A DNA stretch of 64,000 bases from Octopus sinensis (Eukaryota): the NCBI RefSeq assembly GCF_006345805.1, contig NW_021825323.1:434001-498000 (forward strand), in the 5' to 3' direction. A model generated the notes under the pieces. The model had not been told where the DNA came from. It searched no databases and saw only the letters and a program-made list of their open reading frames with translations. The translations under genes were made by a program, and so were the position numbers. Below are positions 14,258-50,886 of the stretch, in pieces. The stretch's first letter is position 1, and each line of letters begins with the position of its first letter.

Positions 14258-16960
14258 CGTTTGTTTGTGAGTACATCAACCAGAAATGCTAAGTCAATCA
14301 AGAAATTTTTTTATCCAAAGGACACTCTTTTTGCTTTGATGAGTAAAAGTTTGATATTTCTTTTTGTAAATCAAGCACACGACATGCTGTTTCACCTTGT
14401 GATAGCCATTGAACTTTGCATGGTATAAAATGTCTTCAGCAGATATTTCACTACCGAAAAGAATTGTACGAAACTGTCTATGTCTCAATGCATTGTTTCG
14501 GATATATAATAATTTGTTTTACTTCATTAAGTGTATCTTCAATTTTTTTAATTTTTGTAGGAGTGATAGATTAAGATGCTCGGCAATATGAAACTGTCGG
14601 CGCTGAATTGTGTCACGTGAAAGTGGAATTGCTTTAAAGTTATGCTCCTTGTCGGGATCAATGCATTTAACTGATTCCATGATACATCTTTTCACAAGTT
14701 CGCCGTCTGAAAAAGAATTTCGAGCAGATCCAAGGATATGAGCAACTCGAAAGGATGCTTCAACTCTTGCATTTGCCACATTTTAAAAAGTTTTTAAACA
14801 TTTTTTTTGTTGTCTTAATTTTTATTTCAAATTTTCGACGGAATTTTCTCTTGAACACTTGGACTTGACAACTAGGTGGTCTAAATGTCTTTGAAAATGT
14901 TGTTTAGCATTGTCCCGTTTTATAGTTTTCACAATCTCATGGCACAATAAGCATTGCATGCTATTGTTGTCTTTTTCGACTACGAAGTATTCACTTTCCC
15001 AGTTGATATTAAATTTTCTTTTTTCTTCATTCAAAGAACGTCGTCTTTTAACAGGTAATGACATAAATAAATTAAGCCGTTTATGATAATTACTTTTAAT
15101 AAAGGTTAACCATTATATAAAAATAGAATTTTATTTAATATGAATATTTTTAATTATTATTTAGGGTTTTTCTTGATTAATTAACACTATGAGCATTATA
15201 TTTAAGATTAGTTGCTCGATGACCTAATTGTGCCCACGGCCGCACATTCATCGACTCACGGCCGCACTTGCGCACCCCTGCTTTAAGTGAACATTATAAA
15301 CAGTCAAGAATTGAAATATATAATTACAAAAATTAAATTATTTTATTTAAAAAATGTCAATAAAGTTATATAGTCTAAAAATTTTTCATTTTCGATTTAA
15401 AACTAACACCTCACTTCTTACCCCCAGCAAATCCCATTCACACTACTGGAATAAAGTTACGTCTTTTCGTGGTCTTGTCGGGTTTAGTGATTCCCCACAC
15501 TTATTATATAATTTTTAAATGTTTTATTGAGTCTGTAGAGCAAACAAACTGCAGAATCTTTTTCCATGTATATTGCGCCATTAAATGATTTCGTCCGTAA
15601 CTTTTTGAGGTTTCAAAGGCATCGGGAAAAACTTAAAAGCTTCCGGAATATACAGGTATTTCGGCCTCTTTTACTCTTTGACATGAGCATTGCGGAGCCC
15701 GGATTGCTCCGAGTCTTGAATAGTATCGTCGCCGAAAAAGAGTCGATGCAGGTGGTATCTTAAACCATGGACTTGTCTTACCAAAAGGAAAAGACGCCAT
15801 CCCATCAGGACGCTTGGCATTGCTCCGGAAAAGGCCGACTTGCTCTAAAGTGGAAGCGAAACCACCCGACTCTACACCTTTTTGATATCAAATATCCGAA
15901 CTGATTGTCAAACGTCATTACTGTGGTTTCTAATTTCCGAACTGGAATGTCAAACGTCATTATTGTGTTTTCTAATATTCGAACTGTGATGTCAAAAATG
16001 TTAATGTTAAAATTACGTATCTAAAAAAATATAAATGGATTTTTGTTCGTTCGAAATGAATACTTTTGTTAAAACTATGAATACTTCTTCTCGTGTTAGT
16101 AAAACATATAATAAAACAAATTTGGAAGCCAAAATGAGAATTATATCTGCTTATGAAAATGAAGCTGCAGATTGGCATATTGTGGCGGAATCGAATGGAG
16201 TTAAGCGAAATAAAGCTTATAAATGGATAAGAAATGCTTCACAACCTAATAAAAAACGTGGAGGATTCAGATGGTCAAAAATCACAGACAATGAAATATC
16301 GAGAATAATAAACTATGTTGAGGAAAATCCTGTCATCACTCTAAGCGAAATTTGTGCGAGACTACTTAATGAAACTGGAATTTCTATCCATTATTCGACA
16401 GCAGCTAAATATTTACATGAAAAATTATTTACAGTTAAGAAAGTATTTTTATATTGGTAAAATCAAGGTTATAACTGAAACCAATTTAATGAATTCAGAA
16501 GCAAACAAGATGAAAAGAAAAGAATATGTCGAAAAAATAATAAATAGAAAAAGTCAAGACAAAAATATAATTTATATGGACGAAACTAATGTAATCTTAT
16601 TTTTAAAAAGAACTCAAGTATAATTTATTAATGTTGATTTTCGAATGGGTGCTCGTTAAAAGGAAAAAGATGCATTTTAAAGACTCCAGCAAACAAGGGA
16701 CAAAATATTCACATAATTGGAGCCATTAATGATAACAAATTAATATATTGGGAACGAAGACGCGGACATTTTAAAAAAAGAATTGCCAGCAATGGTTCAG
16801 AGATATGATCAGAAGTACAAATGAAAAATATTCAGAAATTTGTATTGTGATAGACAACGCACCGGTACATCCACAGTTAGAGAAAATGATTGGAGAAGAA
16901 TTTCGAGATATTGAAATTATAAGATTGGGACCTTACAGTGCACCATTAAATCCAATAGAG

Positions 16961-17474
16961 CATCGGTTCTTAACCTTTTTCAAATTTTTGATAAATTGTA
17001 CCCCTTGGGGTTAAAAATGAATCCCGCGTACCCCCTATTTTTTCATTTTTTGAGATAAATTATTTTCTAACTAAACAAAATCAATAAAATATTTTATGCC
17101 GAAAAAGTGTAAAGGATTTAGTTCTAGTGATATATTTGTTGTTGCTTTTCTGCAACAAGTTTTTTAATATTCGGATCCATGTTGCTAAGAGCGATTCGCA
17201 TATCATCTCCAATTTTCAATTGATTACGAGATTTATTTTTAATAAATGATAAACAAGACATCGAAGTTTCGCATAAGTATGTTGTTGGATAAGGAATTAA
17301 ATATTGCATACTAGCCATAGTCAATTACGAATACTTTGGAATCATTTTACTCCAAAATTCCATAAGTGTGCAAGAATTGAAACATATCTGAATAATCACA
17401 AAAATTGTTCCGCGTACCCCCTGGATCTTCTCGCGTACCCCCTGGGCACATTTACCCCGGGTTAAGAAACCCTG
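16961..17474 (-). mobile_element. Non-autonomous Buster-type hAT element
   Basis: TIRs CATCGGTTCTTAACC and GGTTAAGAAACCCTG; perfect TSD CAATAGAG; dimerization remnant PYPTTYLCETSMSCLSFIKNKSRNQL. Confidence 0.9.
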
Positions 17475-17784
17475 CAATAGAGGAATGCTGGAGCGTGCTT
17501 AAAAGTGAACTAAAAAGAAAAATGGCGACAACTGATTTTTTAATTACAGAAAATGGACTCACCCAAAAAGAAACCAGGCTAACAATTTTAGAAAATTGCA
17601 TAGACACTTGTATTTCTGCAATAACACAAAAATTTGCTCACTAACATGCAATCATGTTCAGAAACATTTTCCAAGTATTATCGAGATGAACGATTTAACT
17701 CCCGATGACAATATTTAGCAACTTAACATTGATTACATTAATAAATATTATTTTTTTACTAATGTGCAGAAAATATAGGAACGG

Positions 17785-18313
17785 ACGTTTGACATCTCAG
17801 TTCGGATATTAGAAAACACAATAATGACGTTTGACATCTCAGTTCGGATATTAGAAATCACAAAAATGACGTTTTACATCTCAGTTCGGATATTAGAAAT
17901 CACAACAATGACGTTTTACATCTCAGTTCGGATATTAGAAATCACAACAATGACGTTTTACATCTCAGTTCGGATATTAGAAATCACAACAATGACGTTT
18001 TACATCTCAGTTCGGATATTAGAAATCACAACAATGACGTTTTACATCTCAGTTCGGATATTAGAAATCACAACAATGACGTTTTACATCTCAGTTCGGA
18101 TATTAGAAATCACAACAATGACGTTTTACATCTCAGTTCGGATATTAGAAATCACAACAATGACGTTTTACATCTCAGTTCGGATATTAGAAATCACAAC
18201 AATGACGTTTTACATCTCAGTTCGGATATTAGAAATCACAACAATGACGTTTTACATCTCAGTTCGGATATTAGAAATTACAACAATGACGTTTGACATC
18301 TCAGTTCGGATAT
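17785..18313. repeat. 42-bp tandem array, about 12.5 copies
   Basis: Unit ACAACAATGACGTTTTACATCTCAGTTCGGATATTAGAAATC; 2-3 inverted copies at about 15890-15995. Confidence 0.97.
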
Positions 18314-19573
18314 TTGACATCCTAGTTCGGATATTCGATACCAAAAAGGTGTAGAGCCCTCCTGACAACGGCATTGAGTTGAATGTGGCAAGGAGTTCTA
18401 CCGGCACCTAGTACACGAAAAGGCGTGCAAGCCTTTCGCCAAAATTGTAGTCTCGTACTGGCAACAAGGGGATGGCAGATGTCCAAGCGTAAAAGGATGT
18501 CAATCGGTAAGGATTTATCGTCCAGTACTAATCCCGTGCTGGAAATAGGGAGTGCTTTGGAACAATCTTTCATAAGCGACTGATAAGCGCAGTTTGATAA
18601 AGCCAGTTGGATTTGGTCCGACTTTTAACTAAGTTTTCGTAAAGTGTTTATGCAGAAGATATTGTTTGCAGCCTCTTTGGACTGAACGAATCGCGAGGAA
18701 ATCAAAGTCAAGTGAGCACCAAGTACGACAAGAAAAATATTCCGAGACTAATTTTTATTTCTTAGACTTTTGTTTAAAAGTAAATTGTATGGATGTTCCC
18801 TTGAAAAATGAAAATCGAAATTTTTTGTCAGACTCATGATTTTCGTGGTTTACTTTTACAACCAATAATCTTTATCCCGGTTTCTGGATAAAAGCAGTGG
18901 TAAGAGTTCAAGTGATTCAAGAGGTTTTTAATTAAAAAACAATTATGAACTTCATATATTTTCCTCTAACAAAAAATGACTTACTCTTTTTGCTAGCTAA
19001 TTTCCTGCCAAGGTCATTAATGAAGACCGAAATAAGTTTTCTGAGACTCCAAAATAAATTAGAATGGACTAAATGAGTTTAGCCAAAGAAACACCACAAG
19101 TACGTCACATTTGCAACCTGCCGAATAACTTAGATGGTTTTGGTAAATCCAGAAGCCATAAAGACATTAAAAAGCGTGGGACTCAGCACAGAGCCCTGAG
19201 GGATCCCGCGAAGGACTGTTCTGACTTTAGAAAAGACCTCCTGGTTCCGTACGACCTGTCCGCGAGATTCAAAGAACCTGACACGGAGCTCCTGAGGCTG
19301 TCGTGTCACACCGAGTCAAAGGCCTTTTCTATGTAAGGACTAACTAATATACCGCACTTCCTTTTCTGAGGGACACCATCCACAAGCAGTCACCGCACAA
19401 ACGACCCTCCCTGAAACCCCATTGGAACTCGGGGAGGGCATCCGCCACCTTCAGCTTCTCCAGGAGCCTTCGGTGCATGATTCATTCTAAAATTTTAGAT
19501 ACAGCAGGGAGCAAGGAAATGGGCCTGTATCCCCCGGGGACATCATGAGGCATCCCGGGTTTTCCGATAAGAA

Positions 19574-19980
19574 AACCCGGGCTTTGAAAACGACAACTGG
19601 CGAGCCACAGGCTAGTACCCGGGAGTACTAGGCGCTCGGCTTCAGCAGGAGATCCCAGGGTGACCCCCACTATTTCAAGAGAGCGGTAACCTTGCTGGCA
19701 GAGGCAATGGGGTACTCCCGTCCTCTAGGTGCTCTAAAAGGTCATTATCCTTGGTTCCCCATGTATCTACAGACGAATAAAGGAGAAGCATTTGAGAATA
19801 AATTTATTGAAATAGTATGCAATGATTTACAGATAAGTAGATTTGCCTAAGAACCATGGATTCAGGGTCAAATAGACAAGCCAAACGATTGACAAAATTT
19901 GAATAATCGAAAATATTTATTGCATGAATGACATCATACGGAGGGCCATCGACTCGGCGTGATTTCCTTCAGTCCTTGAA
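19574..19980. mobile_element. Mosaic insertion (CRE, ORF1-like, integrase and CRE fragments)
   Basis: Flanked by GGTTTTCCGATAAGAA (19558-19573) and GGTTTTCAGATAAGAA (19981-19996); 19580-19926 matches 49510-49855. Confidence 0.7.
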
Positions 19981-20062
19981 GGTTTTCAGATAAGAATTAC
20001 CTCAGCCACTTCCCACCTAAAAGGAATCATCCCAAGTCGCAACCTCCCGCTAAACAAGACTA

Positions 20063-20547
20063 TACCATTTTCAGTTAAAGTTTGACAATTTTTATATCAA
20101 TTTTGACAACGCAATGTTCAATTTTGAAACTTTTTGCATCAATTTTGACAATGTAACATTCAATGTTGACAATGCAATAAGCAATATTGACATTTTTTAC
20201 ATCAGTTTCGAGAATACAATATTCAATTTTGACATTTTTAGATCAATTTTGACAAATATTTTTATAACGGGCACACACAAGGACTTTTTTTAATCGGCTA
20301 AATGAAGATGAGAGTTAATAAAGACAATTTTATTAATCAAGTCAGGTTAATGGAATCCCAATCGTACAATTTGCAATGATTTTGTCTTTATTTCCGTAAA
20401 AATTCCGTATTTTCTCCCGAGTTAGATCTGTCATATTTTAATAATAGTGCTCGAAATTTCGTCAGCTTTCCATTTTCCATTGTCAAATTTGAATATTGCT
20501 TTGTCAAAATTGATTTAAAAATTGTCAAACCTGAACTGAAAACTGTA
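20063..20547. mobile_element. Tc1-family MITE with 21-bp subterminal repeats
   Basis: TIRs TAC(C/A)(A/G)TTTTCAGTT(A/C)A(A/G)GTTTGACAATTTTTA with flanking TA; matches 63477-63845. Confidence 0.85.
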
Positions 20548-21459
20548 TAGTAAGGCGGTGATCAACCACGGCGGGGCTTTCTTGAAGATGGCCATAGGGA
20601 TCCGATCCAGACCTGCCTCGGTTTTCTTACTTCGGGAGATCGGTGCCAGAATTTCCGCTTCGGAAATATCGCCTGCATCGTCCCTAGATATGTCCAGCTG
20701 GCAGCACTTGTCCAACGAAAATATCTCCTAAATAATATCAAAGGACGATGTCTCCACGAACTGACTTCCGTCAGTTCCAGAGATGTCATTGAGGTGGGTT
20801 GAAAATATTTAAGCCACCTCAACCGGGTCCGAGACGAGAATACCACCAGAGCGTTTAATGAGCACTGTATTTACCTCGCCTCTCCCGAAAGGCTTTTCAA
20901 CTGTTTCCAGAAGGCCGGGAAGCGGACTCGCCTGTGAACTTTCGAATTCACGGATTTTTCTTCTGATCTCCCTCTGAAGCCGGCTAATCCAGCAACGAAA
21001 CCAAACACGGTTTACCTTGTAGACACATTTGTCCCGTAACCTGAAAAGCCGGCGCTTGAACCTAATTGTATTTAACAGCCGGTACGGAAGCGTGGGATGT
21101 GACTGACCCTGCACTAAGTTCTGTTTGAAATTATCTCGCATATAATCAGTCAGAGCAGCATTGATCAAATTATCTATCGCCTTCAACTCACGTATGTCGG
21201 CGCAGGTATTCCCTACCAGAAGTGGGGGCAACCTACAAACCATGAACCTCTCCTGGTTAGTCCAAGAACCCGACCGGAGTTCAAAGTATCCTGGAACCCT
21301 TTTTGGAATTGGCTCCCGGAGTTCGTGCAATAGAGGCAGATGGTCGCTCCCAATATAAAGCAATAAAATTGTTTTGCTAACCCAATGCTCTATATGCTTG
21401 GCATTCAGGGCCCCAACAACCATCGCCTTTTGATGCCTTCCAAAAAATTGACTGATAAT

Positions 21460-22490
21460 CACAAGACTTGCCAACAGGTACGAACACCTGAGACATCCCA
21501 ACTGTTCTGTATGAAAGGACTCTCTAGAAAGTCAAGTCCAAGCAATTTCCAGGTGTGAACAGCCACAGGGTATTCCGTAAGCTCGCCGAGTTCTGGTGAG
21601 TTTATAAGAACAGAGCGAAAGAAATTTCCAGAAGCGGACAAGGAGATATAGTAAGGCAAGATCTTTACAAGAACGAACCCCAATACCCCCAAAGCGGGAT
21701 GGGAGCGCAGCACAAGAGCTTCCCACCTTTGTAAACAAAATGTTAAAAAGGAATTGTAACGACAAAGCAACAGCGTCATCCAAAGCCAGAAGTTCTTGAT
21801 GTAAACAATAACAAAAGGATGTACGGAGCAAATAAGTTAGCCGAGGATTGTAAAGAACGTTTTTGAGCAAGAATAGTCCCAAATGAGACTAAAAATGACG
21901 AATTTGAGTGCACGGATGCAAAATCTTTTCTTGTTGTGAGGTGACAGCCTTCACAACACCCTTCATCACATATAGCAGAACCAATAATCACAAGATATGC
22001 AAGAGTAGTTACACGGAGGTCGTCAATCCTGTCAGAAGGACCATAAAAGCATTGCACTAAAGTGTCAGTTGATCCGAAAGTCCTACGAATTGACATTTAT
22101 CGCTATTTAAAGAAAGCCTAATTTTTCGAATTCAGATTTTACCAACGAGAAGTCCTCCATAATCACGAGTGACGTCGTTAAAATACCAAAAACTGACCGG
22201 CTAGGAAGAGTTGCGTGCCACATGATCGACACAGACAGCGAATAAAAGAGGGCCTAGGGGATCACCCTATTTGATTCTACACTCCGACCTTATGAATTTC
22301 CCCGAAAACAGAAGACTGCTTCGCATGAAATATGCAAGAGAAACTTTTGGATATAGTTCGGGGCAGCGTTTGGCGACTGTCTCAAGCATGTGGTCACTCC
22401 TGACGCTATTGAAAGCGTTCTTGAAATCATGTTTGAGAAGGAAGATAACATTCTTTGGCTTTGAAAACGACAACTGGCGGGCCATGGGCT
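21460..22490 (-). mobile_element. CRE-like RT region, degenerate
   Basis: LLKHDFKNAFNSVR, QGDPLGPLLF, LLKNVL..PRLTYLLR, LPSRFGGIGVRS; paralog of 48550-49540. Confidence 0.85.
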
Positions 22491-22529
22491 AGTACCCAGG
22501 AATACTAGGCGTTCGGCATCCCTCGACGA

Positions 22530-24915: not shown

Positions 24916-24919
24916 GCTT

Positions 24920-25519: not shown

Positions 25520-27169
25520 ATGGATAAGTCTGCTAGCCTTAGATTAAATTGTCTAATGTCGCCGTATCATATTGTCCAATTGGTCTCTTCAAAAAAGCTT
25601 TGTTTTTCCAAAGAATCAATTGTTTTTTCCATCAAACAGATATACGAAATAATTGGTGCAAAAAAATTACAAAAATTAGTATCTGAAAGTATTATCTGCT
25701 CTAACACACTAGTGACTACGACTGGAACTCTTGTATGGAAGGATGATTTTGATGTGGAAAGAATAGTTGCACAAAAAACTTTACAAGTTGAGTTGTCCGT
25801 AAAATTGACAGAATGTGAATTATTTTCTGGTCAAATGGCTTGGCTGGGATGCTGCCTGCAATTCATGGGAGCCAGAAGAAAATTTGAACTGTCCTGAGAA
25901 AGTTAATGAGTTTTTTGGTGGTGAAACTGTGCCAGTTGTAGAATGTGATTACACAGATTGGCTAGAAAGTCTGTCTAATCATGTTTGATTTCAATTGTAT
26001 ATTTAGGTCATAGCTAAACCCTCACTACTGGAAGAAATTGCAACCGCTGCAAACAACTTGGAAAATATAAATCCCTCTTTTACTCAAAAAAAAATTGTAC
26101 TTATTAAAATTTTATTTATAAAATGATTATCAGTTCTATTTAAATTAGAATTATGGAGAATACTTCAATCGTAAAGTCGAGTACCAAAAGAAATGTCTCA
26201 GAATGACCGAACGGTATTTTAGAAAGTCCTCAAATGCGGAGGGAACGATTTTTATTGAGAACAACTGCGACTTTGAAACAATATCCAGTGTTTATTCGTT
26301 TAACATCCCGCCAGGACAATTCTGTTATATAAACGAGTCATTTATGTCTAATGAGATTCCCCAATTCGAATTGAAGGAAAAATATTGTTGCGAATGCGTG
26401 GATTGCTCACAATCTGTTCTAAATTGTCCGTGCGCAAACTTTCGCAACAGTCGCTACGCGTACACAATAGATAATCGATGTTTCTTGTCCAGGAGTTTTT
26501 TGATATATGAGTGTGGTCCCAAGTATACTTTTATTTCCATGTTTGATTAGTTGTAAATGTTACAAAAACTGTCCGAATACGGTTGTGCAAAAAGGACGCA
26601 AGATTGACCTTTGTTTATTTAAAACCTCGAACGGAAGAGGGTGGGGAGTAAAGTCTTTGGGAGAAATTAAAAAAGGGACTTTTGTGACGGAATACGTTGG
26701 GGAGGTACTCATTGTTATACGAGAGGCAGATCGTGACAGACCAGATTGCGGAGGATCGTGGTCAACTTTATGATAGTGAGAGAATGAGTTATTTATTCAA
26801 CATGGACTTTGAGGATAATGGGAAACCTCTTGTGGTTGACGCAAAGAATTATGGAAATATCTCTCGTTTTATTAACCACAGTGTATTTCACGTGCTCTAT
26901 TGACAGTGTGATCCTAATTTGCATGTTCTATCCACTTGGTCTGGGAATCGAGATTTAAGAGTATATCGACTTTCCTTGTTCGCTCGGCGGAAGATTCGCA
27001 TGGGAGAGGAACTTACATTTGATTACTTAATGAAATGTATATTTGTTTGTTATATTATTCCAGCAAACGACGACTGCTCATACAATGAAGAGAATGGTCG
27101 TTAATTTTATCATTTGTAGATATCAGGTGTCTTTGTTTTTCGAAAAAGTGCAAAAGTCGGTTATTTTGA
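25520..27169 (+). CDS. SUV39H: SUV39H/Su(var)3-9 H3K9 methyltransferase (chromo, pre-SET, SET, post-SET), multi-exon
   Basis: Chromo FDVERIV..YFLVKWLGW..NSWEPEENL; pre-SET Cys cluster; GRGWGV, EYVGE, GNISRFINHS|CDPNL, GEELTFDY, CLCFSKKCKSRLF-stop; GT-AG introns mostly 23-28 nt. Confidence 0.93.
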
Positions 27170-27483
27170 AACGATTTCATTTTTTCTTTCTGTAATTATT
27201 TTTTCTGATTTTTTAATTTTTTATCTGTTATTTTGTACCTGCACTTGGTTTCAAAGTATGAGATGAGGATAATTTCCGTTGGTCGAATCGAGGAAGATTG
27301 TTTTATTGTAGATATGTGTAATACAGTGAATTAAGAACTAGGATTATCTCCAAATATTGTAAACCTCAGTGAATTCTCGTAAAGTTCTTCTGTTTTTTTA
27401 AAAAAATAAAGTAATAAATAAGTTAAGCCAAATCTAACATCAGAACAACGTGGTGACATATATAACCCTAACCCTGGTAGTAG

Positions 27484-27897
27484 TTGTCAGGAGTTTTTTG
27501 ATATATAAGTGTGGTCCCAAGTATAATTTTATTCCCATGTTTGACTAGTTGTAAATGTTACAAAAACTTTCCAAACACGGTTGTGCAAAAAGGACACAAG
27601 ATTGACCTTTGTTTGTTTAAAACCGCGAACGGAAGAGGGTGAGATGTAAAGTCTTTGGGAGAAATTAAAAAAGGGAATTTTGTGACGGAATACGTTGGGG
27701 AGGTACTCATTGTTATACGAGAGGCAGATCGTGACAGACCTTATTGCGGAGGATCGTGGTCAACTTTATGATAGTGAGAGAATGAGTTATTTGTTCAACA
27801 TGGACTTTGAGGATAATGGGAAACTTCTTGTGGTTGACGCAAAGAATTATGGAAATATATCTCGTTTTATTAACCACAGTGTATTTCACGTGCTCTA
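27484..27897 (+). pseudogene. Partial intron-retaining duplicate of the SUV39H SET region
   Basis: Close copy of 26485-26899; GRGW changed to GRG-stop; cut off by a LINE. Confidence 0.9.
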
Positions 27898-30872: not shown

Positions 30873-30971
30873 CAAGGTCACAGCGTTTCACTTTAGGCAC
30901 GGGTTTCATTTATGGCGCGTGACAACAAAATGTTACACGTCTGGCGCCCGTTTCAGTTATGGCGCGCCACA
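30873..30971. repeat. Isolated Ginger-like terminal repeat
   Basis: CAAAATGTTACACGTCTGGCGCCCGTTTCAGTTATGGCGCGCCACA, also at 47510-47554; ends in ACA. Confidence 0.55.
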
Positions 30972-31029
30972 AAAATTAACACATTTTAAACTTTTATAAA
31001 TTGACCTAAGTCAATTTTGTTGAATAGGA

Positions 31030-33295
31030 CAGGGGTCGGCAAAACCAGGCTCGCGAGCCTTTGAAGGCTCTTTAACTCTTACGGTAGGCTCTTTCAATTT
31101 TTAACTATTTTTTTATAAATGATTTCAATTTTTAACTATTTTTTTTGTTTTGTAATAACAAAAAATCTTTGCACGTTTACATTAATTTTTTGTGGTACAT
31201 CGATATATGCCTAGCAAGAAAAAAATTAATAAAAAAATCGATAATGCGCGACATTTTCAATCAAAATGGACTGAAACTTTTGCATTCACGTCTAATTCAG
31301 AACAACTACCGAAATGTCTCATCTGCCAGGAAACATTGAATCAAAATAAAAAGTCAAATTTAGAGAGACACTTTAACACAAAACACTCAAATTTCGCCCA
31401 AAAATATCCAATTGGTGATTCCCGAAAGAAGGCTGTAGAAGAACTTACAAAAAATATTCAATTCGAGAATTCTGCTTTTAAATGTTGGTTCGACAATGCC
31501 AGGACTGCAAATATTGCAAGTTTTGTAATAAGCCACGAGATCGCAAAAAGGGGAAAACCATTTACCGATGGGGAATTTATAAAGGCATGTTTTATCAAAA
31601 CCTCTGAAGAACTTTTTCACGATTTTTCAAATAAGGCAGAAATCGTGAATAAAATAATGAATATACCTTTATCTGCGAAAATAGTAGCCGACAGGACTTT
31701 TAAGATGTCTTCGAATGTATCTGTTCAACAAGTTTCTGACATGAAATTGTTTAATTCAATTTCAATAGCAATAGATGAATCATGTGATATAAATGACATT
31801 GCACAAGTATCATTGTTCATGTCATTTTAGGTGTCTCTGTTTGTTCATTGTTCATGTCATTTTGAAACGCATTATATTCCTCTTAATAAAATCGTTTCAA
31901 TTTCAACTGACGGTGCTGCAAGCATGCTGGGATCGAGAAAGGGATTTACAACTTTAATTAAAAGGAGATTGATCATGAAGTGATTACTCTACATTGTATT
32001 ATCCACCAAGAAGCACTATCTGCGCAAACGTTTCCGAAAGAAATTTTAGAAGTGATGGAATTGGTTATAAAGATTACTAACTTCATTATATCAAGTAATA
32101 TATTATTTATTATATATTCAAGGGACTTAATCATCGGCTATTTAAAGAGTTGTTAAAGAAACCAACAACGAGTATATTGATCTACTTCAATACAACAAAG
32201 TTCGTTGGCTTTCGAGAGGGAACGTTCTCAATCGTTTGCTTCTTGTATGCAAGAAGTCAAACTTTTTTTAAATGAGAAAAAATTCATTATGACGAATTAA
32301 GTGATGACCAATGGCTGCAGAAATTTTATTTCATGGTTGACATTTCATCAGAATTGAACAAACTTAATTCAAAATTGCAACGGAGTGGAAATATATGCTT
32401 TTTTCATGTATGAGGAAGTGATATTGTTTGAAAAAAAATTAATTCTGTTTGAAGAGGATATAGAACAAAATATTTTACATTTTCCTAAATTACGTCAATA
32501 TTTAAAAGAAAATGATCGAACTATAAATAAAACTTATTTTAAAAATGCTCTTTATATATGAAGGAATCTTTCAATGACAGGTTAAAAATGAATGTTTAAA
32601 TATAAAGGTTTGAGGATTTTAGAAAAGAAAAAGCAACACTATCGTTCGTTATAAACCCTCTACGTGCTAAAGTCAGCAATTTAAATTTATTGCCATTTGA
32701 AATCAACGCAGCTGAGTTCGAAATGCAGCTATTGGACTTGACATGTAAGGAATTATGGGCATCAAAGTTTATTCGCCTTTCAGAATTTCTTGAAACCTTG
32801 GAACAGAAACATTGTCTGGTAAAATTAAGAATGATATTAATTTTATACAAAAGAAACTGGAAGATGTGATTCTCGAAACTTGGAATTCTCTTCCAGATTC
32901 TTATTATGAATTAAAAAAAGTTGCATACGGAATTTTGACAATATTCGGGTCCACTTATATGTGTGAACAAAGTTTTTCTCATATGAATTATATAAAATCG
33001 AAATTAAGGAACAAAATTACAGATTCGAATTTGGAATCTAACCTCAGATTAAAATTAACGACTTACGACCCAGACATTAACCAACTCTCCAAAGAAATGA
33101 GGAATCACATTTCTCATTAATGCGTCTAATTAATTTAATTTTTTAAAATGAATTTTTAATTATTTTTTAAATTAATGTCTATTTAATTTTATGATTTAAA
33201 TTTTTGACAAGTGGTAAAAGGTGGCTCTTCAATTTTTCGAAATTTCCAAAAATGTTCAAAATTGGCTCTTCTCCAAAAGTATTTGCCGACCCCTG
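31030..33295 (+). mobile_element. Buster/SPIN-type hAT transposon with micro-introns, defective
   Basis: TIRs CAGGGGTCGGCAAA and TTTGCCGACCCCTG; perfect TSD GAATAGGA; CLICQ..H..KH, IDESCD, TDGAASM, LHCIIHQEAL, VRWLSRG, FGSTYMCEQSFS; introns 31807-31830, 32095-32122, 32581-32607. Confidence 0.95.
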
Positions 33296-37435: not shown

Positions 37436-37439
37436 ATTT

Positions 37440-38930: not shown

Positions 38931-39586
38931 TTATTTTTTGAAATGAATTCTCCAATATTTACTAACTTTTTTGAACAACTTTTTATCACATGACATCTTT
39001 TCCCATTTTCTCTTTATTGCCGAAGCTGAACGTTGATTCTCATGTAAAATTGTAGAAATGTGATCAAAATCCTTTCCATAAACCTTGACAGCATCCAACA
39101 ATGTCGCTTCTTCTTTTATAGACCATAAAAGTCGATTTGACTTAATACAATCTGTAAAACTATTTTCTGCAGAAAAATAATCAGTTTCCTTTTCCGATTT
39201 AAAATTAATTTTTAACAAATCTGAACTTTCTGAAGTTTGTCGAATATTTCGGTCTTTTAAAATATCACAGCCATAATAACTGTTAATAAGAGCTACAATT
39301 TCCTCTAATTTACAATCTCTTTAAGATAATCAAAGTTAACTTACGGAGCTGATGCAAGTCGGCAATGAACTGTATCTTCATTTAGAGGAAGTTCTTTCTA
39401 GAATGTGAAATAAGGATAAAAGAACCAGAAGGTCTGACTCAGTGAGTTGATTTTTCATATATTCAAAAACCTATTTAATTGATATTTGAGAATTCTAACT
39501 GCTTTAATTTCCTTGTTGGAATCAGAATTTTGGCGTAATAATTTTAATATTTCCAAAATACACTTAGAATAAACCTGAACAGACAT
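38931..39586 (-). CDS. Protein of about 190 aa with a C-terminal Myb/SANT domain, 4 exons
   Basis: MSVQVYSKCILEIL.. joined by three 26-29 nt GT-AG introns that keep frame, ending WSIKEEATLLDAVKVYGKDFDHIS..RSASAIKRKWEKM. Confidence 0.75.
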
Positions 39587-40258: not shown

Positions 40259-40379
40259 ATGTCAATTACAATGTTTTTTTATATGCTAATTTCATATTTA
40301 TTTATATTTTATTGCTGTCAAAGATTTATTTTTGACTTTTTAAAAATTAAAAAAAACATTCTTGTTCTTAATAAGTAAA

Positions 40380-40592: not shown

Positions 40593-41144
40593 CTTAAAAG
40601 ACAAGGACTCAATAATTTTGGATTAATTAAAATAATTAACTTCCTTATTCTTTCTTTAAAGTTTTTTTTCTGCGGCTGGCAAATCAAATCTTATTAATAA
40701 AAATTTATAATGTAAATAAACTGCCTAATGGGAATTTTGTACTTGCATTTTAGAGATTTAAATATCAATTTTCGGCGTTATCATCGTCTACTTTAAGACG
40801 ATTTCAATACTTTGACTTTAAATATCCACGATGTGACATTGCCGTTTCACAGATATGTTGTGTGAAATGGAATTAACTGAGTAATGGATATACAATTCTT
40901 ATTTCGCACCAGAATTCCATTAATGTACTATTTTAAACGATATCAAAGGACTTAGTATAATTATGCATGCATGACTTGAGTGGTCAGTCGATCATGAATA
41001 GAAAGCACGCTGTCACAAACAGGGAATATATATAAGAAACCTTAATTCTAATATCTGAGCAAAATCAAACGTCACTGAAGATGGGAAAAAGTTGAAGAGA
41101 ATTTGGTAGAATTGACTAATGATTGACGAATTAATTAAAATATT

Positions 41145-41430
41145 GGAGCAGACTAAAACTGTCATTGATTAGCTTGTTTACTTATAATTTAAAGTAAATT
41201 ATTTATGGCCATATGGATAGGAATTTATAAAACCTGCTTTCATTCTACTGTAAAATGCTACATGCTAAGAAAGTTAGGTAATGAAACAAATTAAACAAAT
41301 AAGGGCCTGTTGTAAATGCAACCCTCAGTGGTTGCATGGGGCATAAAAAGGAAACGCCTCTTTTTTAATACCAAAAAATTCAATTTGCATGGAAGTTCAT
41401 TTTTCAAACTTCAAATCAATTATAATAACT
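41145..41430 (+). repeat. Unclassified interspersed repeat, copy 2
   Basis: Matches 43170-43465; the adjacent segment 40973-41072 matches 43970-44068. Confidence 0.7.
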
Positions 41431-43169: not shown

Positions 43170-43565
43170 ATTTTGTAGCAGACAAGTTTCATTGATTAGC
43201 ATTTTACTTGTAATTTAAAAGTAATATAATACTGGCCACTTGGCCATATGCATATCCATCTATAAACCCTGCTTTCATGCTACTGCAAAAAGCTAAGGGG
43301 CAAAAAAAACATACCATGAAAAACCACATAAAAGCGACTCTTAGTGGTTGCAGGGCATAAAAAGGAAAAGCCTTCATATTCAACATTATAAAATTAAATT
43401 AGCATAGAAAGTGTTCTAAAACAATTGAATAGTGTGTTTATTTTTCAAACTTCAAATCAATTATATGAGTTTTTAAAATTTTTGACCTTTTGAGATTTTA
43501 AATGTAATGTCAGGGAGAACGTAGAGGATCTGACCAATCTCCCATCTTTCATTTTGAAAAAGAGA
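43170..43565 (+). repeat. Unclassified interspersed repeat, copy 3
   Basis: Homologous to 36205-36570 (inverted) and 41145-41430. Confidence 0.7.
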
Positions 43566-44068
43566 AGGCTTAGGAAAACAGCAAGTTACAATAAAAAATA
43601 ATAAATCAAGAATTAAAGAAATATCTCAATCAATCGTTTATGATAATATAAAAATTTTCCCCTGTATGAGGTCTATTTCATTAAAAATCATCGTATTTAA
43701 TAAAGGTAACGAAAATATCAACACATGAATCTCGGAATTTGTTTATTCTGTAAAGTTCTTTTTCTACAAATATATTTTGCTAGATTAAATACAATATTGG
43801 ATGTTTAAAATTAAATATAAAATAATATTAATTAAAAATCAACTGGAAAAAAGTCAGATGTTGTCTAATACCAGTGTCGTGAAAATTGGGCTCTTTAACC
43901 TCCTTTTAGTCCCTTGATGATAATTATAAAAAAACCAAGTGCTTTTTTTATTTATTATGATTATACGTTGACTTAAGTGGTCAGTCGATCGTGAATAGAA
44001 GGTATCTGTCACAAACGGTGAATATAGAAAAAAAACGTTTATTCTAATATAAGAGCAGAATCAAACGT

Positions 44069-45945
44069 TTAGACGTGTAACAATTTGGCCTTGCATTTTA
44101 ACCTTCAAATGTCATTTAATTGTTGTCTGCCGGTAACTATTATTTTTGCAAATGAGAATAGCTAATGCAGTCAAAGATGATAATGAATATAATGATATTC
44201 TTCAGTATTTACAACATGAGAAATTTCCAGAGCGATAGTCAAGAACACAAAGATCAAGATTTTTACAAAAATGCAAAAATTTCATTTTAATCGGAGGTAT
44301 TTTCCTATCTCATTTCAGGAACACTTTATTTTAATGAAATAAATGGTGAAAATAAGCAAGTAATTTGTTTGAATGATCGCAAAACAATGAAATATCATTG
44401 TGATCGGATTCATTCTCAGTTTCACTTTGGATTAAACAAGATGGAAGAATACTGCAGAAATAATTTTTCTTCTTATAAAAGATTCATAATCAGAGAGTAA
44501 CTTCTATGTGCCCAAAATGCAAACAACTGATCCATTTATTAAAAATAAGTCTACAATTGTTCATATTGTAGCAAATCACCACGAGAACCGTTTCTTTAAT
44601 CATTTATTCTAGATACCAGATTGATTTGTTTGATCTATCACTTTATTCTTCTTTAAATAATTCATATAAGTATCTAATGAATGTAATCGACATTTATTCG
44701 AAATTCTGTTTTGCAAGAACTATTCTCAATAAGGAAGCTGTTACAGTATCAGAGTTCCTAAGACGTATTTTTGAATCTTATGGCCCCCCAAAAATAATCC
44801 AAACTGACAATGGAAAAGAATTTGTGAATTCGGAAATAGATTCCTTATGCCAACAATTTAAAATAATCCATAAGAGAGAACGACCAAGGCATCCCGAGTC
44901 TCAAGGCCAAGTAGAGCGTTGCAACCAACTCTCTGCAGATGGCTTCAAAAGGAACTATTTGGAAAAGAAAAGATATGGACTGCTGCATTAAGCAATGTAG
45001 TATATAGATACAATATTTCTGTACATTCTGCAACTAAATTATCACCATTTATGTCATTTTTTAATACGCGAGGATATAATGTTTCCTACTTTGACCAGGA
45101 AGCAAGCTTAGAGGAAACTGAAACAAAAGACATTACAAATGAATCATACATTTCTCGTATGGAAAGAAATAGTTCACTCCAAAATTGCCAAATCGAAAAT
45201 TTTAAAGTTGGAGATCACGTACTATTAAAAAAAGATTTTGATACGAATCAAAAAACTAAAAAAAGGAAATTAGAATCTTTTTTCTTCGAAAAAACTTTGG
45301 ATCACATAAAACAAACGCCCCCAGGGGCGTTTGTTTGATATGTGTGAAGTTAGGGGCGTTTGTTTAATATGTGTTATATTGATGTTATAAAAAATTATAT
45401 TATAATGGAGGGCCTATTCCAATTTGAATGTTTTTGGCTATGACCACGCTACTGTAAACCACTCAATTAACTTTATTGAACCAACCACCGGTGTTCATAC
45501 CCAACATGTGGAGTCCTATTGGAATAAAAACAAATTGCGTTGTAAGAAAATGAAAGGTGTCAAAAAAGAATTTTTACAAGACTACCTAAACGAATTTATG
45601 TGGCGTGACAACGTAATTGGTGATCCTTTTGAAAAGTTAATGGAGCTTTTGAAAAATTATTATGTTGTTCAATAAACTTATTTCTAAAGTATAGTATTTA
45701 TTTATAAATTTGATTTTTAGTTTTACATTATTTTAACGTTTTCGTCGAATGTTTGACATGTATAAATTTAGGGCGTTTGTTTAAGTAAATTTGGGGGCGT
45801 TTGTTTAAGTAAATTTGGGGGCGTTTGTTTAATTTGATCCAAAACTTTTACTATCAAAGAATTAATTTCCCAAAATAGAATAATGATAGAAAATGAAGAT
45901 GGAACCGAAAAAACGGTTTTTTACTCTCAAATTAAAAAAATTTAA
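44069..45945 (+). mobile_element. Ginger-like DNA transposon (Gypsy-type integrase without RT), with introns; may extend to a right TIR at 47554
   Basis: ORF 44152-45945: H2C2 (HSQFHFG..CPKC), YQIDL, IDIYSKF, IIQTDNGKEF, PRHPESQGQVERCN; introns 44297-44318 and 44590-44612; 44070-44093 is inverted relative to 47503-47525. Confidence 0.8.
45299..45840 (+). mobile_element. Merlin non-autonomous element
   Basis: TIRs GGATCA..AAACAAACGCCCCC; perfect 8-bp TSD AAAACTTT; HATVNHSINF..TGVHTQHVESYWN..YLNEFMWR. Confidence 0.95.
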
Positions 45946-46451
45946 ATAAATTGTTTTGAAATTATTTTTAATAAATCCCTGTACAAATTGAAAAATAGTA
46001 GATTGAAAGTATGTTGAGATAGTATCTGTATCAAAAATGCCGCGGCAGAAGGCCGCATAGGGGAATAGTAGCTATCTTAAAAATTTCGGCCGAAGGCCGT
46101 TAGGTAGGTAAGGCTTTGTTTGATCAGAAAATCTCTTCTGTATTAACTTAAAAATAAATTAAATTTAAAGGAACTTCATCTATTGTCCAAATAAGAGAAT
46201 GATAACAAACTTAAAGATTTTAAACTACATTTTTAAAATTAAAGTAGACTAGGCCTTTATAATTCTTTAAGAATTTTCATTATTTCTATCATTTTATATT
46301 CTAATTAAAAGGGAAACAATAGCAAATTTTTAGAATGAAATTTATTAAAATAAATATTATTTTTTTAAAGATAATTTATCAAATTTAATGGATAACCAAT
46401 ACTATTTTTAAATAATTTAAGTGCATTATATGTTGTTCATTGTGCATTATA

Positions 46452-46557
46452 GCCCCCTTGGCTGAAGACTAAGCTATGGATAATGTATTTGGACGGTCGT
46501 GAGTTCGATTCCGATTCATCCTGGGGCAAATTCTCGTTATCGTTCCCCTGCCCGTGA
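46452..46557 (+). mobile_element. 5' (tRNA-like head) part of SINE family 1
   Basis: A-box-like TGGCTGAAGACTAAG, B-box GAGTTCGATTCC, then sequence shared with 40216-40258. Confidence 0.65.
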
Positions 46558-46589
46558 ATTAGATGTTGTTTCCTTGTTTTTTATTTCAA

Positions 46590-47465
46590 AGTTTTTGTTA
46601 TTTTTTGTTATTTTTTTTTTTTTGGTGACTGTCAAATTTAATAATGCATTAATAGGAAAAAGTAAGCAATTGGTGGCTAAGGGAATTGTCGAGGGCCTGA
46701 GGGTCAGCTCAACGATGCCGCGCTGCGTATTGAGTGGCAGTTTCCGCGGAGCACAGCAACCGAGATTCGCTGGAACAGCCAGCTCGTCTCCCTCCGGTCG
46801 TTTGTTTTTGTGGAGATTTTTCTACCAATGCGGAGAGGAGTTGAGTCGCAGCCTTTCCGACGATTCCAGAGGTTTCGAAGGCGAGGGGGGCAAACTCAAA
46901 AGCGTCCGAAATACACCGGTATTTCGTCATCTTTGTCTCTTCAGCCAGCGCACTGGCGGAACCCGGGTTTGCGACAGTCCTGGGAAGCATTGTCGCCGAA
47001 AAAGAGTCGACACACGTGGCATCCCAAACCAGGGACTTGCCTCCCTAAAAGGAAAGGTCGTCATCCCGTCGGGACGCTTGCCGTCGCTCCGGGAAAGGCC
47101 GACTGGCTCTAGGGTGGAAGGGACCAGCCGACTCTAGAGCCCTCCTCACAACGTCATTCAGATGAGTGTGACGGGGAATTCTCCCGGCACTCTTCTTACA
47201 CGACAAGGCGTGCAAGCCGTTTGACGAAATTGAGGACCCGCACCGGCAAGGGTGGGGCTGGCAGATGTCCAAACCCAATCGTAAGCTGATCCCAATCCGC
47301 AAGGATTCGTCGTCCAGTAGTAACACCCGTACTAGGAGTGGGGAGAGCTTTGAGCCAGTCACCCGTGTGCGGCTGACAGGCGCAGTTAAGGGTGGCCAGC
47401 TGGAGTTGGTCCGACTTGGAGCGAAGTTTTCGTAATGTGTTCAAGCAGAGAATTTCGTCCCAGTT
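46590..47465 (-). mobile_element. CRE-like 3' portion with A-rich tail
   Basis: [48 protein letters not shown]. Confidence 0.88.
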
Positions 47466-48098
47466 TTGTTAATTGCTAATCAAGGTCATTATGCGGTTTT
47501 CTCAAGGTCAAAATGTTACACGTCTGGCGCCCGTTTCAGTTATCGCGCGCCACAATTATTTTGATTCTTTCTTCCTTATGGAAGACCAAATCATCCTCAA
47601 TCACAGGTAATGATACAATATTTATCTGTTTCAGGGCATCGTGGAAAGGTTTAATCAAACTTTGGTGAATAATTTTAAAAAAATTGATAGGTTCGAGTTT
47701 TAAAGGATTATGGGAAAAATCCTTCACTTAAGCTAAACAGATTTGAATCCCCATATGGAGAACCAGCTGAAATTATTCAAATTTTGTCATATTAAGACAC
47801 GTTCGGGGAAATGTAAAATAATTAATATGAATCAAGTAAAAAAAGCATAGAGGCTTTATTTTAGTAAATTTTTTATTGTTAAATCGATCATTGATTAGAA
47901 ACCAATGGAACAACATTTCCAAACCAATGAAATTAATTTTGACAGCCACTGTGACAGACATTATGATAGATTGACAGGTGACATGTAGCCACCATGGGAT
48001 GGGTAGCTCGTGTGGGACGCGACGGTGTTTTTTGGTCTTAATAAATAAATATAATAAATTTAATAAGTGTGTTTTATTGGAATATTTGATTAGTGTGT

Positions 48099-48337
48099 TT
48101 GTGTATCAAAAAACTCTCCCTCGCTCAGCAATAACAAAATAAAAACTAAACAGAAAAGAAGATAGCACCAAATATATAAAGGAAAACTCCAAAAAATAAA
48201 AAATCTTCCGCCACCTAAATTATGTAACGAATGAGGTTAGTTATCAATTGTGTATCAAAAAACTCCCCCTCGCTCAGCAATAACAAAATAAAAACTAAAC
48301 AGAAAAAAAGATAGCACCAAATCCATAAAGGAAAACA
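48099..48337. repeat. Direct repeat of about 89 bp, two copies 149 bp apart
   Basis: TTGTGTATCAAAAAACTC..AAAGGAAAAC at 48099 and 48248. Confidence 0.9.
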
Positions 48338-48549
48338 TGAAAATTTTTGTAGCGCAATTTAATATACTAAGAATGTCCCCCCATCATTCAAATTAAAATT
48401 GATAAACCTTAAATCAGATTTGGAATTTACTTCAGTGCTAAAGATTAAAAATTTGATGGAATTTTATAGTTCACTTCCCAAAGTGAGTCAATTTTCAGTC
48501 ATTCAAATATAAAATAAATATCGAAATAAATTGACTGATGGTCTCTCCA

Positions 48550-49942
48550 ACATGTGTGAACACCTGATGACATCCCAACTCTTCTGTATGAAAGTACTCT
48601 CTGGAAGGTTAAGTCCAAGCGATTTCTAGGTATGAACATGAACAGGATGTTCCGTAAGCTCGCCAAGTTCGGGTTAGTTTACAAGAACAGAGCGAACGAA
48701 ACTTACAGAAGCGGACGAGAAGATATAGCAAGGCAATATCTTCATAAGAACGAACCCCAATACCCCCAAAGCGGAGTGGGAGCGCAGCACAATAGCTTCC
48801 CACCTTTGTAAACAAGGCGTTCAAAAGGAATTGTAACGACAAAGCAACAGCGTCATACAAAGCCAGTTCTTGATGTAAACAATAACAAGAAGATGTACGG
48901 AGCTAATAAGTCAGCCGAGGAATGTAAAGAAAGTTTTTGAGATAGAATAGTCACAAATGAGACTCAAAATGACGGATTCGAGTCCACAGATCCAAAATTT
49001 TTTCTTGATGCTAGGCCTTCATAAATTGAAGAATCAAGAATCACAAGATCTGCAAGGGCAGTTAAACAGAGACCGTCAATCCTCTCAGAAGGACCATAAA
49101 AGCATTACACTGAAGTGTCAGTGGCTCCGAAAGTCCTACGACTTCACATTTATCACCATTTAAAGAAAGCCCAATTTTCGCAAATTCAGATTTTATCCAA
49201 GAGAAGTTTTCCTTAATCACGAGTGACGTCGTCCAAATACCAAAAATTGACCGGCTAGGAAGTGTTGCATGCCACATAATCGACACAGACAGCGAATAAA
49301 AGAGGGCCTAGGGGATCACCCTGTTTGATTCCACACTTCGACCTTATGACTTTCCCGGACAACAGAAGACTGCTTGACATGAAATATGCAAGATAAACTT
49401 TTTGATATAACTCGGGCAGCCTTTGGCGATTGCCTCGAGCATGTGGTCCATCCTGACGCTATTTAAAGCGTTCTTGGCATCAAGTTTGAGAAGGAAGAAA
49501 ACATTCTTTGGCTTTGAAAATGACAACTGGCGGGAAACGGGCTAGTACCCAGGAGTACTAGGCGTTCGGCTTCCTCAGAAAATCCCAGGGTGACCTCTAG
49601 CACTTCAAGAGGGCGGTAACCTTGCTGGCAGAGGCACTAGGGTACTCCCGCTGCAGGTGCTCTAAAAGGTCGTTATCGTTGGTCCCCCATTTATCTACAG
49701 ACGGATAATTAAGAAGAATTTAAGAATAAATTTATTGAAATAGTGTGCAATGATTTACAGATAAGTAGATTTCATAAAGAACCATGGATTCAGGGTCAAA
49801 TAGACAAGCCAAACGATTGACAAAATTTTGATAATAGAAAATATTTATTGCATGATCAAACAAGATTTCCAGAGTACGAGAATTCGACTATTATTCGTTT
49901 TTATTAAAAATCAACTTTCATTTTCAGCTGAAAATCTAATTG
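48550..49942. mobile_element. CRE RT fragment (-) fused to ORF1-like and integrase fragments (mosaic cassette)
   Basis: 48550-49570 parallels 21475-22520; 49510-49855 parallels 19580-19926. Confidence 0.85.
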
Positions 49943-50013
49943 TCAATCAGTTCTTTAACGGATATTATATAACGCCCAATTTTTTTTTCTGACATACATG
50001 AATAAATCATAAC

Positions 50014-50886
50014 TAGGGCAACCAAAAAATTGCACTTTTTAATAAAAAAAATTGCAAAAATGAATTTTAAAAATTGTAAAAAATTGCAAAAATAATTTTT
50101 TTTAATTGTAAACATTACATTATGCAAAAAATTAACGAAATTATTTTCCACTATTGCCCACTATTGAAAAAAACACATTCCCCACTATTGAATAACTTAA
50201 AAAAAACAACAGTAAATGAGTCTGAATGGTATTAATTTTATATTTTGATATTTCTTTAACATTTAACCTGCAAGATGATTCAGATGGCAAAGGATATGTT
50301 TCCTGCTCAAAAAGCCGTATGAGGGAAGGATGTCTGATTTTATAAATTGGTATGTTTGCCTCCAAAAACGCTTGTGTTACTTTGATCCCCCAATCCTTTC
50401 GAGTATCCGTTATCGCCGAAAGAAATGTTTGTGAACTCTGAGATGAATTTGTCCATTCTATAAATTTAAATTCAAAGAAATACTGTGTGCTTTTAAATGT
50501 TTTTTTGAAGAACGGTGCGCATCAACAAAAAATTTTGTGTCACACCGTACAACAGTTGAGCAATTGGAGCAAAATAAATTCCCTTCACTGTCAATAACAA
50601 ACTCGGGGAATTTCTTTGCATAAAATGAAATTTTCTGTGACACTGTCCTTTTACCCATTACAACAAACAACTAAAACACGTTTTAATAATCTTTTACTTA
50701 TAATTATATTATTTTTTAATAAAAAAATTGCAAAAAATTGTAAAATGACTACAAAAAATTGCAAAAAATTGCAAATTTAAATCGAATAAAAATATAATTA
50801 AAATTAATGTCTATTCATTACTTTATTATTTATCGAATTTTAATTAAATTATATTTAATTGCAAAAAATTGCAATTGGTTGCCCTA
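50014..50886 (-). mobile_element. CGGBP1-like hAT element, internally deleted, with micro-intron
   Basis: TIRs TAGGGCAACCAA and TTGGTTGCCCTA; perfect TSD ATCATAAC; LFCSNC..VDAHRSSKKH finger; AFLEANIPIYKIRHPSL; 26-nt intron 50483-50458. Confidence 0.9.

What the first reader, a model, noticed from the sequence alone, without database searches (positions are those of the whole stretch)
16443..50483. Four different DNA-transposon families carry host-type 22-28 nt spliceosomal micro-introns
Seen: GT-AG micro-introns whose removal restores the frame or conserved motif in the Tc1-like transposase (16443-16467, TVKK|VITE), Buster hAT (31807-31830 IAQ|VSLFV; 32581-32607 FNDR|FEDF), Ginger-like integrase (44297-44318) and CGGBP-like hAT (50483-50458). 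Less clean candidates with nearby indels or a mutated acceptor lie at about 16618-16646, 32095-32122 and 44590-44612. Sizes match the host-gene introns. No introns were seen in the retroelements. Known: introns occur in some Tc1 and Ginger elements, but Buster/SPIN transposases are usually intronless. Inference: either this genome gains micro-introns rapidly, or DNA transposons are selected to acquire introns for expression or to escape silencing of intronless transcripts.
Basis: partly seen in the sequence, partly recalled or inferred. Interest (0 to 1): 0.72.

Follow-up and report, generated by a model that had tools for sequence, protein, structure and literature searches.

The report
Parasite transposons gained tiny introns
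Four kinds of cut-and-paste jumping genes here are interrupted by 22-29-base GT-AG inserts that are likely spliced out like the equally tiny predicted introns of their host, likely a dicyemid parasite mixed into a mollusc assembly; the inserts are old, were likely gained in this lineage, and are likely not needed, because intron-free sister families with intact copies sit in the same genome.

Summary
Confirmed. All eight proposed micro-introns hold at family level. Spliced alignment to unrelated homologs picks them, decoy splice signals score lower in intact copies, and removing them gives complete Ginger-like (~400 aa), hAT (458 aa) and Tc1 frames; the window copies are broken. The window belongs to a second, small-genome organism with median 25-nt introns (likely a dicyemid) inside a 2.7-Gb mollusc assembly. 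Related families hold 22 distinct intron positions. They are fixed within families (0 of 219 locus checks show exact loss) and some are shared by families only 36-57% identical, so they are old. Foreign relatives read through these positions: 27 Buster proteins, and none of 26 DNA loci from an intron-blind hAT search has an intron there. Gain in this lineage is the best reading, biased to AG|G-like sites. 'Rapid gain' and 'needed to escape silencing' are not supported: about 13 of 28 sampled families are intronless, several with intact copies. No tandem-duplication or introner signal; splicing not seen in RNA. Introns in DNA transposons and dicyemid micro-introns are each known; the combination was not found in print. 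The scan reported the same thing before on other DNA of this genome.

The parts
15875..18351 (+). Tc1-like DD34E DNA transposon, broken copy, with long repeat-built TIRs and an internal insertion
   Evidence: TA on both sides and matching termini; DD34E spacing read from the sequence; Pfam HTH_Tnp_Tc3_2 below cut-off; copies on many contigs
16443..16467 (+). Tc1 intron 1, 25 nt, phase 0
   Evidence: GT-AG in 7 of 7 locus checks
16618..16646 (+). Tc1 intron 2, 29 nt, phase 0; acceptor mutated in this copy
   Evidence: AG intact in L032-L034
31030..33295 (+). Buster-type hAT transposon, broken copy
   Evidence: TIRs and 8-bp TSD with central TA; exon 1 up to 65% identical to bat, fish, frog and arthropod proteins
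31807..31830 (+). Buster intron 1, 24 nt (25 in most copies), phase 0
31847..31860 (+). Copy-specific scar: about 87 nt of exon 2 missing and replaced by a short copy of intron 1 sequence
   Evidence: alignment of copies; shared only with L002 among the 8 copies shown
32095..32122 (+). Buster intron 2, 28 nt, phase 0
32581..32607 (+). Buster intron 3, 27 nt (29 in some copies), phase 2; same position in the diverged relative L172
44071..46440 (+). Ginger2/TDD-like integrase DNA transposon, broken copy (left TIR mostly lost; right end approximate)
   Evidence: Pfam rve; full copy L059 has TGT...ACA TIRs and a 5-bp TSD; spliced L059 gives an open ~400-aa frame
44297..44318 (+). Ginger intron 1, 22 nt, phase 1; same position and length in sister family B (62% protein identity)
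44590..44612 (+). Ginger intron 2, 23 nt, phase 2; same position in family B (24 nt) and family E (25 nt)
45299..45840 (+). Short Merlin/ISXO2-type element inserted in the Ginger copy
   Evidence: 8-bp TSD; Pfam DDE_Tnp_IS1595
50014..50886 (-).
   Evidence: TIRs and 8-bp TSD; full copies L087/L089/L092 splice to one 458-aa frame with 4 introns; homologs carry PF04937
50458..50483 (-). hAT intron 1, 26 nt, phase 1; position shared with 3 other families
504..1189 (+). Host comparison: ubiquitin-conjugating enzyme gene, introns of 26, 45, 23 and 25 nt
   Evidence: boundaries set by hand, open spliced frame; Pfam UQ_con exons in order
25520..27170 (+). Host comparison: chromo/pre-SET/SET methyltransferase gene, eight introns of 23-52 nt
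   Evidence: SET profile positions 26-68 and 69-104 abut across one intron
55874..56948 (+). Host comparison: leucine carboxyl methyltransferase gene, first three introns of 25, 25 and 24 nt (3' part not resolved)
11068..13897 (+). Control: non-LTR retroelement without micro-introns
   Evidence: Pfam RVT_1; copies with 1,154-1,159-aa open frames

Best explanation
The four transposase genes carry 22-29-nt GT-AG inserts that are likely ordinary spliceosomal introns, likely removed by the spliceosome of a small co-sequenced animal (likely a dicyemid), and likely gained one at a time after intronless ancestors entered this lineage. Shown: the inserts, their fixation within families, their sharing among related families, an intact protein only after their removal, intron-free foreign relatives, and intron-free sister families in the same genome. 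Inferred: a transposon lineage arrives without introns; from time to time a short AT-rich insertion lands at an AG|G-like site and is tolerated because the host splices about 25-nt introns with little more than GT and AG; cut-and-paste copying passes it on unchanged, and only copies that keep GT and AG make transposase. Retroelements pass through spliced RNA and so lose such inserts. The source of the inserted bases is not resolved; DNA-break repair is my best guess.
For: Spliced alignments to foreign or open-frame profiles call these inserts and beat decoys. Complete frames after removal. Ginger A vs B: differences 0.28/0.19/0.49 by codon position over 391 spliced codons, with both introns kept at the same place. 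207 of 219 locus checks keep GT-AG, 12 have a mutated end, 0 show exact loss (overlapping loci may count twice). The Buster family nests among foreign proteins that read through all three positions. The six intron-bearing DUF659-hAT families form one side of a branch (support 78/91, 94 and 91 in three trees) among foreign proteins. 0 of 26 foreign DNA loci from an intron-blind pattern search have an intron at the five positions (16 to 25 loci span each); one foreign family has a 318-346-nt GT-AG insert at another position. Ginger-like families carry different sets. Exon G before the donor at 13 of 22 positions (background 0.16, p=5e-6), G after the acceptor at 9 of 22 (p=0.004). Second organism: a 1,667-nt, 45%-GC 18S whose flank shares a 96% repeat with the window's contig, against ~2.6-kb, 63%-GC 18S genes and haemocyanin on chromosome-scale contigs.
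Against: Splicing itself was not observed. Three shared hAT introns map to a short stem (0.08-0.09 changes per site), which looks like a burst or like inheritance from an unsampled intron-bearing donor; the nearest sister proteins P0210/P0227 and the Buster sister P0007 were seen only as proteins, so they could come from spliced RNA or gene models. Many of the 26 foreign loci are near-copies. One Ginger position is shared by distant families (A/B and E, 27-29% identical), which could mean loss elsewhere rather than gain. Intronless hAT families are no closer to foreign proteins (44-51%) than intron-bearing ones (42-49%), so they cannot be called recent arrivals. The dicyemid label has no phylogenetic test. 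Host intron boundaries were set by hand.
Confidence: 0.7

Rival explanations
1. Inherited and shrunk: the elements arrived with normal-sized introns, which shrank to host size; intronless families arrived without introns or lost them.
For: Three hAT introns sit on a short stem and are shared by families 36-57% identical. A foreign DUF659-hAT family has a normal-sized GT-AG insert. Ginger1 elements are known to carry 1-4 introns (PMC2836005). Protein databases favour intronless relatives.
Against: No foreign locus or protein has an intron or break at these positions. The Buster family is nested in a clade of closely related foreign proteins. At least two hAT positions and most Ginger positions are restricted to sub-branches inside this genome.
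Confidence: 0.17
2. Selection: DNA transposons are driven to gain introns to be expressed or to escape silencing of intronless transcripts.
For: All three DNA superfamilies have intron-bearing families; the intron-bearing hAT family has 19 matches at 100% over a 103-aa exon, so it spread recently. Splicing-linked silencing is known in other animals (PMC5554785, seen only in a search listing; HUSH recalled).
Against: About 13 of 28 sampled families are intronless, with intact frames of 607-621 aa (Buster), 336-413 aa (Tc1-like) and 449-454 aa (hAT), some in many near-identical copies. Retroelements with 1,100+ aa frames are abundant. Intron density in most transposases (about 1.6-2.9 per kb, one Ginger group about 5.6) is below that of the two host genes (about 6 per kb).
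Confidence: 0.08
3. The inserts are removed from DNA (programmed elimination) or are unspliced dead-copy insertions, not RNA introns.
For: No RNA evidence here; dicyemids are reported to rearrange or amplify DNA in development (passage in PMC6543705).
Against: GT-AG ends are kept across very diverged families, no copy lacks an insert exactly, and the joined frame is under purifying selection.
Confidence: 0.04

Closest known systems
Ultra-short spliceosomal introns of dicyemids and myxobolid myxozoans (PMC13644364, parts 1-2 of 3 of the text read; PMC6543705 and PMC6736024, passages)
   Same: Median 25 nt here against 27 nt in Dicyema sp.; splice signals reduced to GT(a) and AG; co-sequenced with a mollusc.
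   Different: Those papers treat host genes. The word 'transpos' does not occur in PMC6543705 or PMC6736024. Here the introns lie in transposases whose relatives lack them. Supplements were not seen.
Ginger1 and Ginger2/TDD DNA transposons (Bao et al. 2010, PMC2836005, passages)
   Same: Gypsy-like integrase between TGT-ended TIRs; 5-bp TSD as in TDD-4/5; Ginger1 transposases have 1-4 introns, some at conserved positions.
   Different: Introns here are 22-29 nt, with up to about seven per gene and 12 accepted positions among seven families; no OTU or Ulp1 tail.
Intron gain and loss in plant CACTA and mariner-like transposases (PMC4158355, abstract and first part of the Discussion)
   Same: Transposase families differ in intron number; positions follow the element tree.
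   Different: CACTA is explained mainly by loss from a four-exon ancestor. Here gain is the better fit, in three superfamilies at once, at near-minimal intron size.
Buster-type hAT transposases of bats, fish, frogs and arthropods; intronless state recalled, not confirmed by PMC12637253 (no mention of introns)
   Same: 57-61% identity over the whole spliced protein, 8-bp TSD with central TA.
   Different: Three micro-introns.
Introners (PMC9860276, search listing only)
   Same: A route to many new introns.
   Different: The introns here are not copies of one another and are not mobile units; the transposon is the target of gain, not the source.

Membership tests
Spliceosomal (U2-type) intron | GT...AG ends kept across diverged copies | tested here: met
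Spliceosomal (U2-type) intron | Removal restores a conserved protein | tested here: met
Spliceosomal (U2-type) intron | Spliced out of RNA | not testable with these tools
   no RNA holder was listed for the one stretch searched
Spliceosomal (U2-type) intron | Branch point | not tested
   no analysis run
Tc1 (IS630-Tc1-mariner) | TA target duplication and TIRs | tested here: met
Tc1 (IS630-Tc1-mariner) | DD34E catalytic spacing (criterion recalled) | tested here: met
   counted by eye on the window sequence
hAT, Buster type | 8-bp TSD with central TA and short TIRs (criterion partly recalled) | tested here: met
hAT, Buster type | BED/Spin zinc finger and hAT dimerisation domain | tested here: met
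   Dimer_Tnp_hAT above cut-off; zinc-finger hits below cut-off
hAT, Buster type | Groups with named TcBuster/SPIN references | not tested
   the tree held database proteins with generic names only
Ginger2/TDD | TGT-ended TIRs, 4-5-bp TSD, Gypsy-like integrase, no reverse transcriptase inside the element | tested here: met
   criteria from PMC2836005
Ginger2/TDD | Groups with reference Ginger2 transposases | not tested
   no reference sequences in hand
DUF659-type hAT | 8-bp TSD, TIRs, homologs with PF04937 | tested here: met
CGGBP1-related hAT | Similarity to CGGBP1 | not tested
Dicyemida | Most introns under 30 nt with reduced signals | tested here: met
   13 of 15 host introns are 23-28 nt; also true of myxobolids (PMC13644364)
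Dicyemida | Lives in a cephalopod | tested here: inconclusive
   main genome has molluscan haemocyanin and a ~2.6-kb 18S; that this fits a cephalopod is recalled
Dicyemida | Phylogenetic placement of host genes or 18S | not tested
   no named dicyemid reference sequence was obtained
Introner | Sequence-similar introns at unrelated sites | tested here: not met
   best pairs among 47 introns are homologous positions or plain AT-rich matches

The most novel reading that the evidence does not exclude
In an animal whose spliceosome accepts 22-30-nt introns, ordinary small repair insertions at AG|G-like sites become working introns. DNA transposons that arrive intronless then record at least 20 independent, orderable intron gains across three superfamilies, a rare animal data set for how new introns arise without introners.
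Probability: 0.35. Interest if true: 0.7.

Novelty: new variant of a known kind. Interest (0 to 1): 0.48.

Why it matters
Clear intron gains are rare in animals, and their origin is an open question. Transposases with an intronless ancestral state give polarity: each intron is a likely gain, ordered by the element tree, with intronless sister families as controls. The set also offers natural 22-29-nt test substrates for the lower size limit of animal splicing. Practically, gene finders and repeat libraries will read these elements as dead, and the contigs belong to a second organism inside the assembly.

Tried and rejected
RNA search for the Ginger stretch: no RNA holder listed; no evidence either way, and no reads could be laid. 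Tandem-duplication origin: Buster intron 1 echoes the next exon (4 of 7 residues, reached by 1 of 722 shuffled pairs, but it is the best of 47 introns), while the overall test was null (291 against 297 +/- 13, p=0.69). Introner origin: rejected. Newly arising introns in young copies: no 8-60-nt insertion with GT-AG ends in 112 copy alignments. Intronless families as recent arrivals: not supported. Buster relatives in prokaryotic and viral collections: none. Automatic host-gene splicing was too noisy, so boundaries were set by hand. Rows dropped before the count of 22 positions: Ginger L145 (two nested elements, unstable calls), L148 and L152 (partial or mutated donor), two weak Ginger calls in a poorly aligned region, near-duplicate hAT rows, the weak Tc1 call in L202 (score gain 0.6) and the chromosome-scale L221 (decoys scored higher). 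Insert calls in degraded foreign loci L237-L249 were treated as unreliable; one (L242, 53 nt) lies at an alignment edge four residues from a hAT position, in another phase. PMC9942856 and PMC12637253 passages gave nothing on transposase introns.
Full report
Observation. Seven begin with GT and end with AG in the window; the eighth (16618-16646) ends in AT here and in AG in sister copies. The four elements are genuine DNA transposons: a DD34E Tc1-like element with TA duplication, a Buster-type hAT with an 8-bp TSD, a Ginger2/TDD-like integrase element with TGT termini and a 5-bp TSD in full copies, and a DUF659-type hAT with an 8-bp TSD. All four window copies are broken; some single-base breaks may be assembly errors.

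Are they introns? I wrote a spliced protein-to-DNA aligner and used profiles that assume no intron. Against 27 foreign full-length Buster proteins it called three GT-AG introns in four of six copies; in the other two, one site is damaged. Against three foreign Ginger-like proteins it called two, against 20 foreign Tc1-like proteins two, and against an intronless in-genome hAT family four. Decoy ends scored lower in every case but the truncated window hAT copy. Removal gives a fully open ~400-aa Ginger frame in L059, the same 458-aa hAT protein in L087, L089 and L092, and a Tc1 alignment without frameshift or stop in L032. Two Ginger families 62% identical in protein keep both introns at the same place, and their spliced frames differ most at third codon positions. 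Of 219 locus checks, 207 keep GT-AG, 12 have a mutated end and none has lost the insert exactly. Splicing in RNA was not seen and could not be tested.

Whose genome? G000 is 2.72 Gb, but close copies of the four families were found only on small contigs that recur between searches. The assembly holds two kinds of 18S: 1,667 nt at 45% GC on a small contig whose flank shares a 985-bp, 96% repeat with the window's contig, and about 2.6 kb at 63% GC on chromosome-scale contigs. Those large contigs carry molluscan haemocyanin. Host genes in the window have introns of median 25 nt. Among animals only dicyemids and myxobolids are reported to have such introns (PMC13644364), and dicyemids live in cephalopod kidneys (PMC6543705). 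A dicyemid is therefore likely, but this was not tested by phylogeny.

Gained or inherited? The Buster family and a degraded relative that shares intron 3 nest inside a clade of foreign proteins from bats, fish, frogs and unnamed sources that read through all three positions. For the DUF659 hAT, six families 36-57% identical share up to three positions; two more positions are limited to sub-branches. These six form one side of a branch, apart from four intronless in-genome families. Of 120 foreign proteins, 68, 86, 120 and 117 span the four L089 positions in one alignment. Because protein databases favour intronless genes, I also ran a DNA pattern search that is blind to introns: none of 26 foreign loci has an intron at the five positions, and one family has a 318-346-nt GT-AG insert at a different site. 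Ginger-like families carry different sets, from none to about seven. In all, 22 positions were accepted (5 hAT, 12 Ginger, 3 Buster, 2 Tc1). Gain in this lineage fits best. The main doubts are three hAT introns on a short stem, sister elements seen only as proteins, and one Ginger position shared by distant families.

Needed or not? On the same contigs, three Buster families (607-621 aa), five Tc1-like families, four DUF659-hAT families and one Ginger-like family have no called intron. By my family boundaries that is about 13 of 28, in a sample drawn by similarity to intron-bearing queries. Non-LTR retroelements have open frames above 1,100 aa. So introns are not required for a transposon to persist here, and gain is old rather than rapid. 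Most intron-bearing transposases have fewer introns per kb than the two complete host genes or the 6.2 introns per 1,155-bp gene given for D. japonicum (PMC6736024).

How are they gained? Sites lean towards AG|G: G before the donor at 13 of 22 positions and G after the acceptor at 9 of 22, against 16% background. There is no overall trace of tandem duplication and no introner family, and no new GT-AG insert was found among young copies. The interiors are about 81% AT and too old to show their source. Short repair insertions, like the templated scar in the window's Buster copy, are a plausible but untested source.

Relation to what is known. Introns in DNA transposases are known (Ginger1, PMC2836005; CACTA and mariner-like elements, PMC4158355), and so are dicyemid micro-introns. 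Seven paper searches found no paper on micro-introns in dicyemid transposons; the library lacks most subscription journals and no supplements were read. Earlier notes of this scan report the same phenomenon on other contigs of this genome; they are unchecked and are not counted as support. This report adds the intron-blind foreign DNA test and the count of intronless sister families.

Verdict. A real feature and a new variant of a known kind. Confidence in the main explanation 0.7; interest 0.48.

Noticed in passing
G000 as a whole; L156 (C1618): The assembly contains a second organism with a short 18S, micro-introns and its own transposon set on many small contigs.
   Followed up: partly
window 31807-31860: Buster intron 1 reads in frame like the start of the next exon (4 of 7 residues, 5 of 7 in the 25-nt variant), and the window copy has a templated scar beside it.
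   Followed up: partly
L136-L142, L144, L146: A Ginger-like family whose single 24-nt intron has no stop and keeps the frame, so spliced and unspliced proteins are both possible.
   Followed up: partly
L229, L236: A foreign DUF659-hAT family with a 318-346-nt GT-AG insert at its own position, likely an independent normal-sized intron gain.
   Followed up: partly
window 45299-45840: Short Merlin/ISXO2-type element with an 8-bp TSD inside the Ginger copy.
   Followed up: partly
window 15875-16020 and 17779-18351: The Tc1-like element has long TIRs built of short tandem repeats; the right one gives spurious repetitive ORFs.
   Followed up: no
window 30880-30975: Right-end remnants of two Ginger families (A and B) side by side just before the Buster element.
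   Followed up: no
window 27480-27800: A partial second copy of the SET-domain gene's middle exons, micro-introns included, directly after the gene.
   Followed up: no
window 51330-51680 (- strand): Fragment resembling the intronless Buster family L166/L167; an intronless and an intron-bearing Buster occur in the same window.
   Followed up: no
window 58413-60660, 62013-63265, 38931-39320: Further host genes (EF-hand protein, zinc-finger protein, Myb-domain protein) with apparent micro-introns; boundaries not resolved.
   Followed up: no
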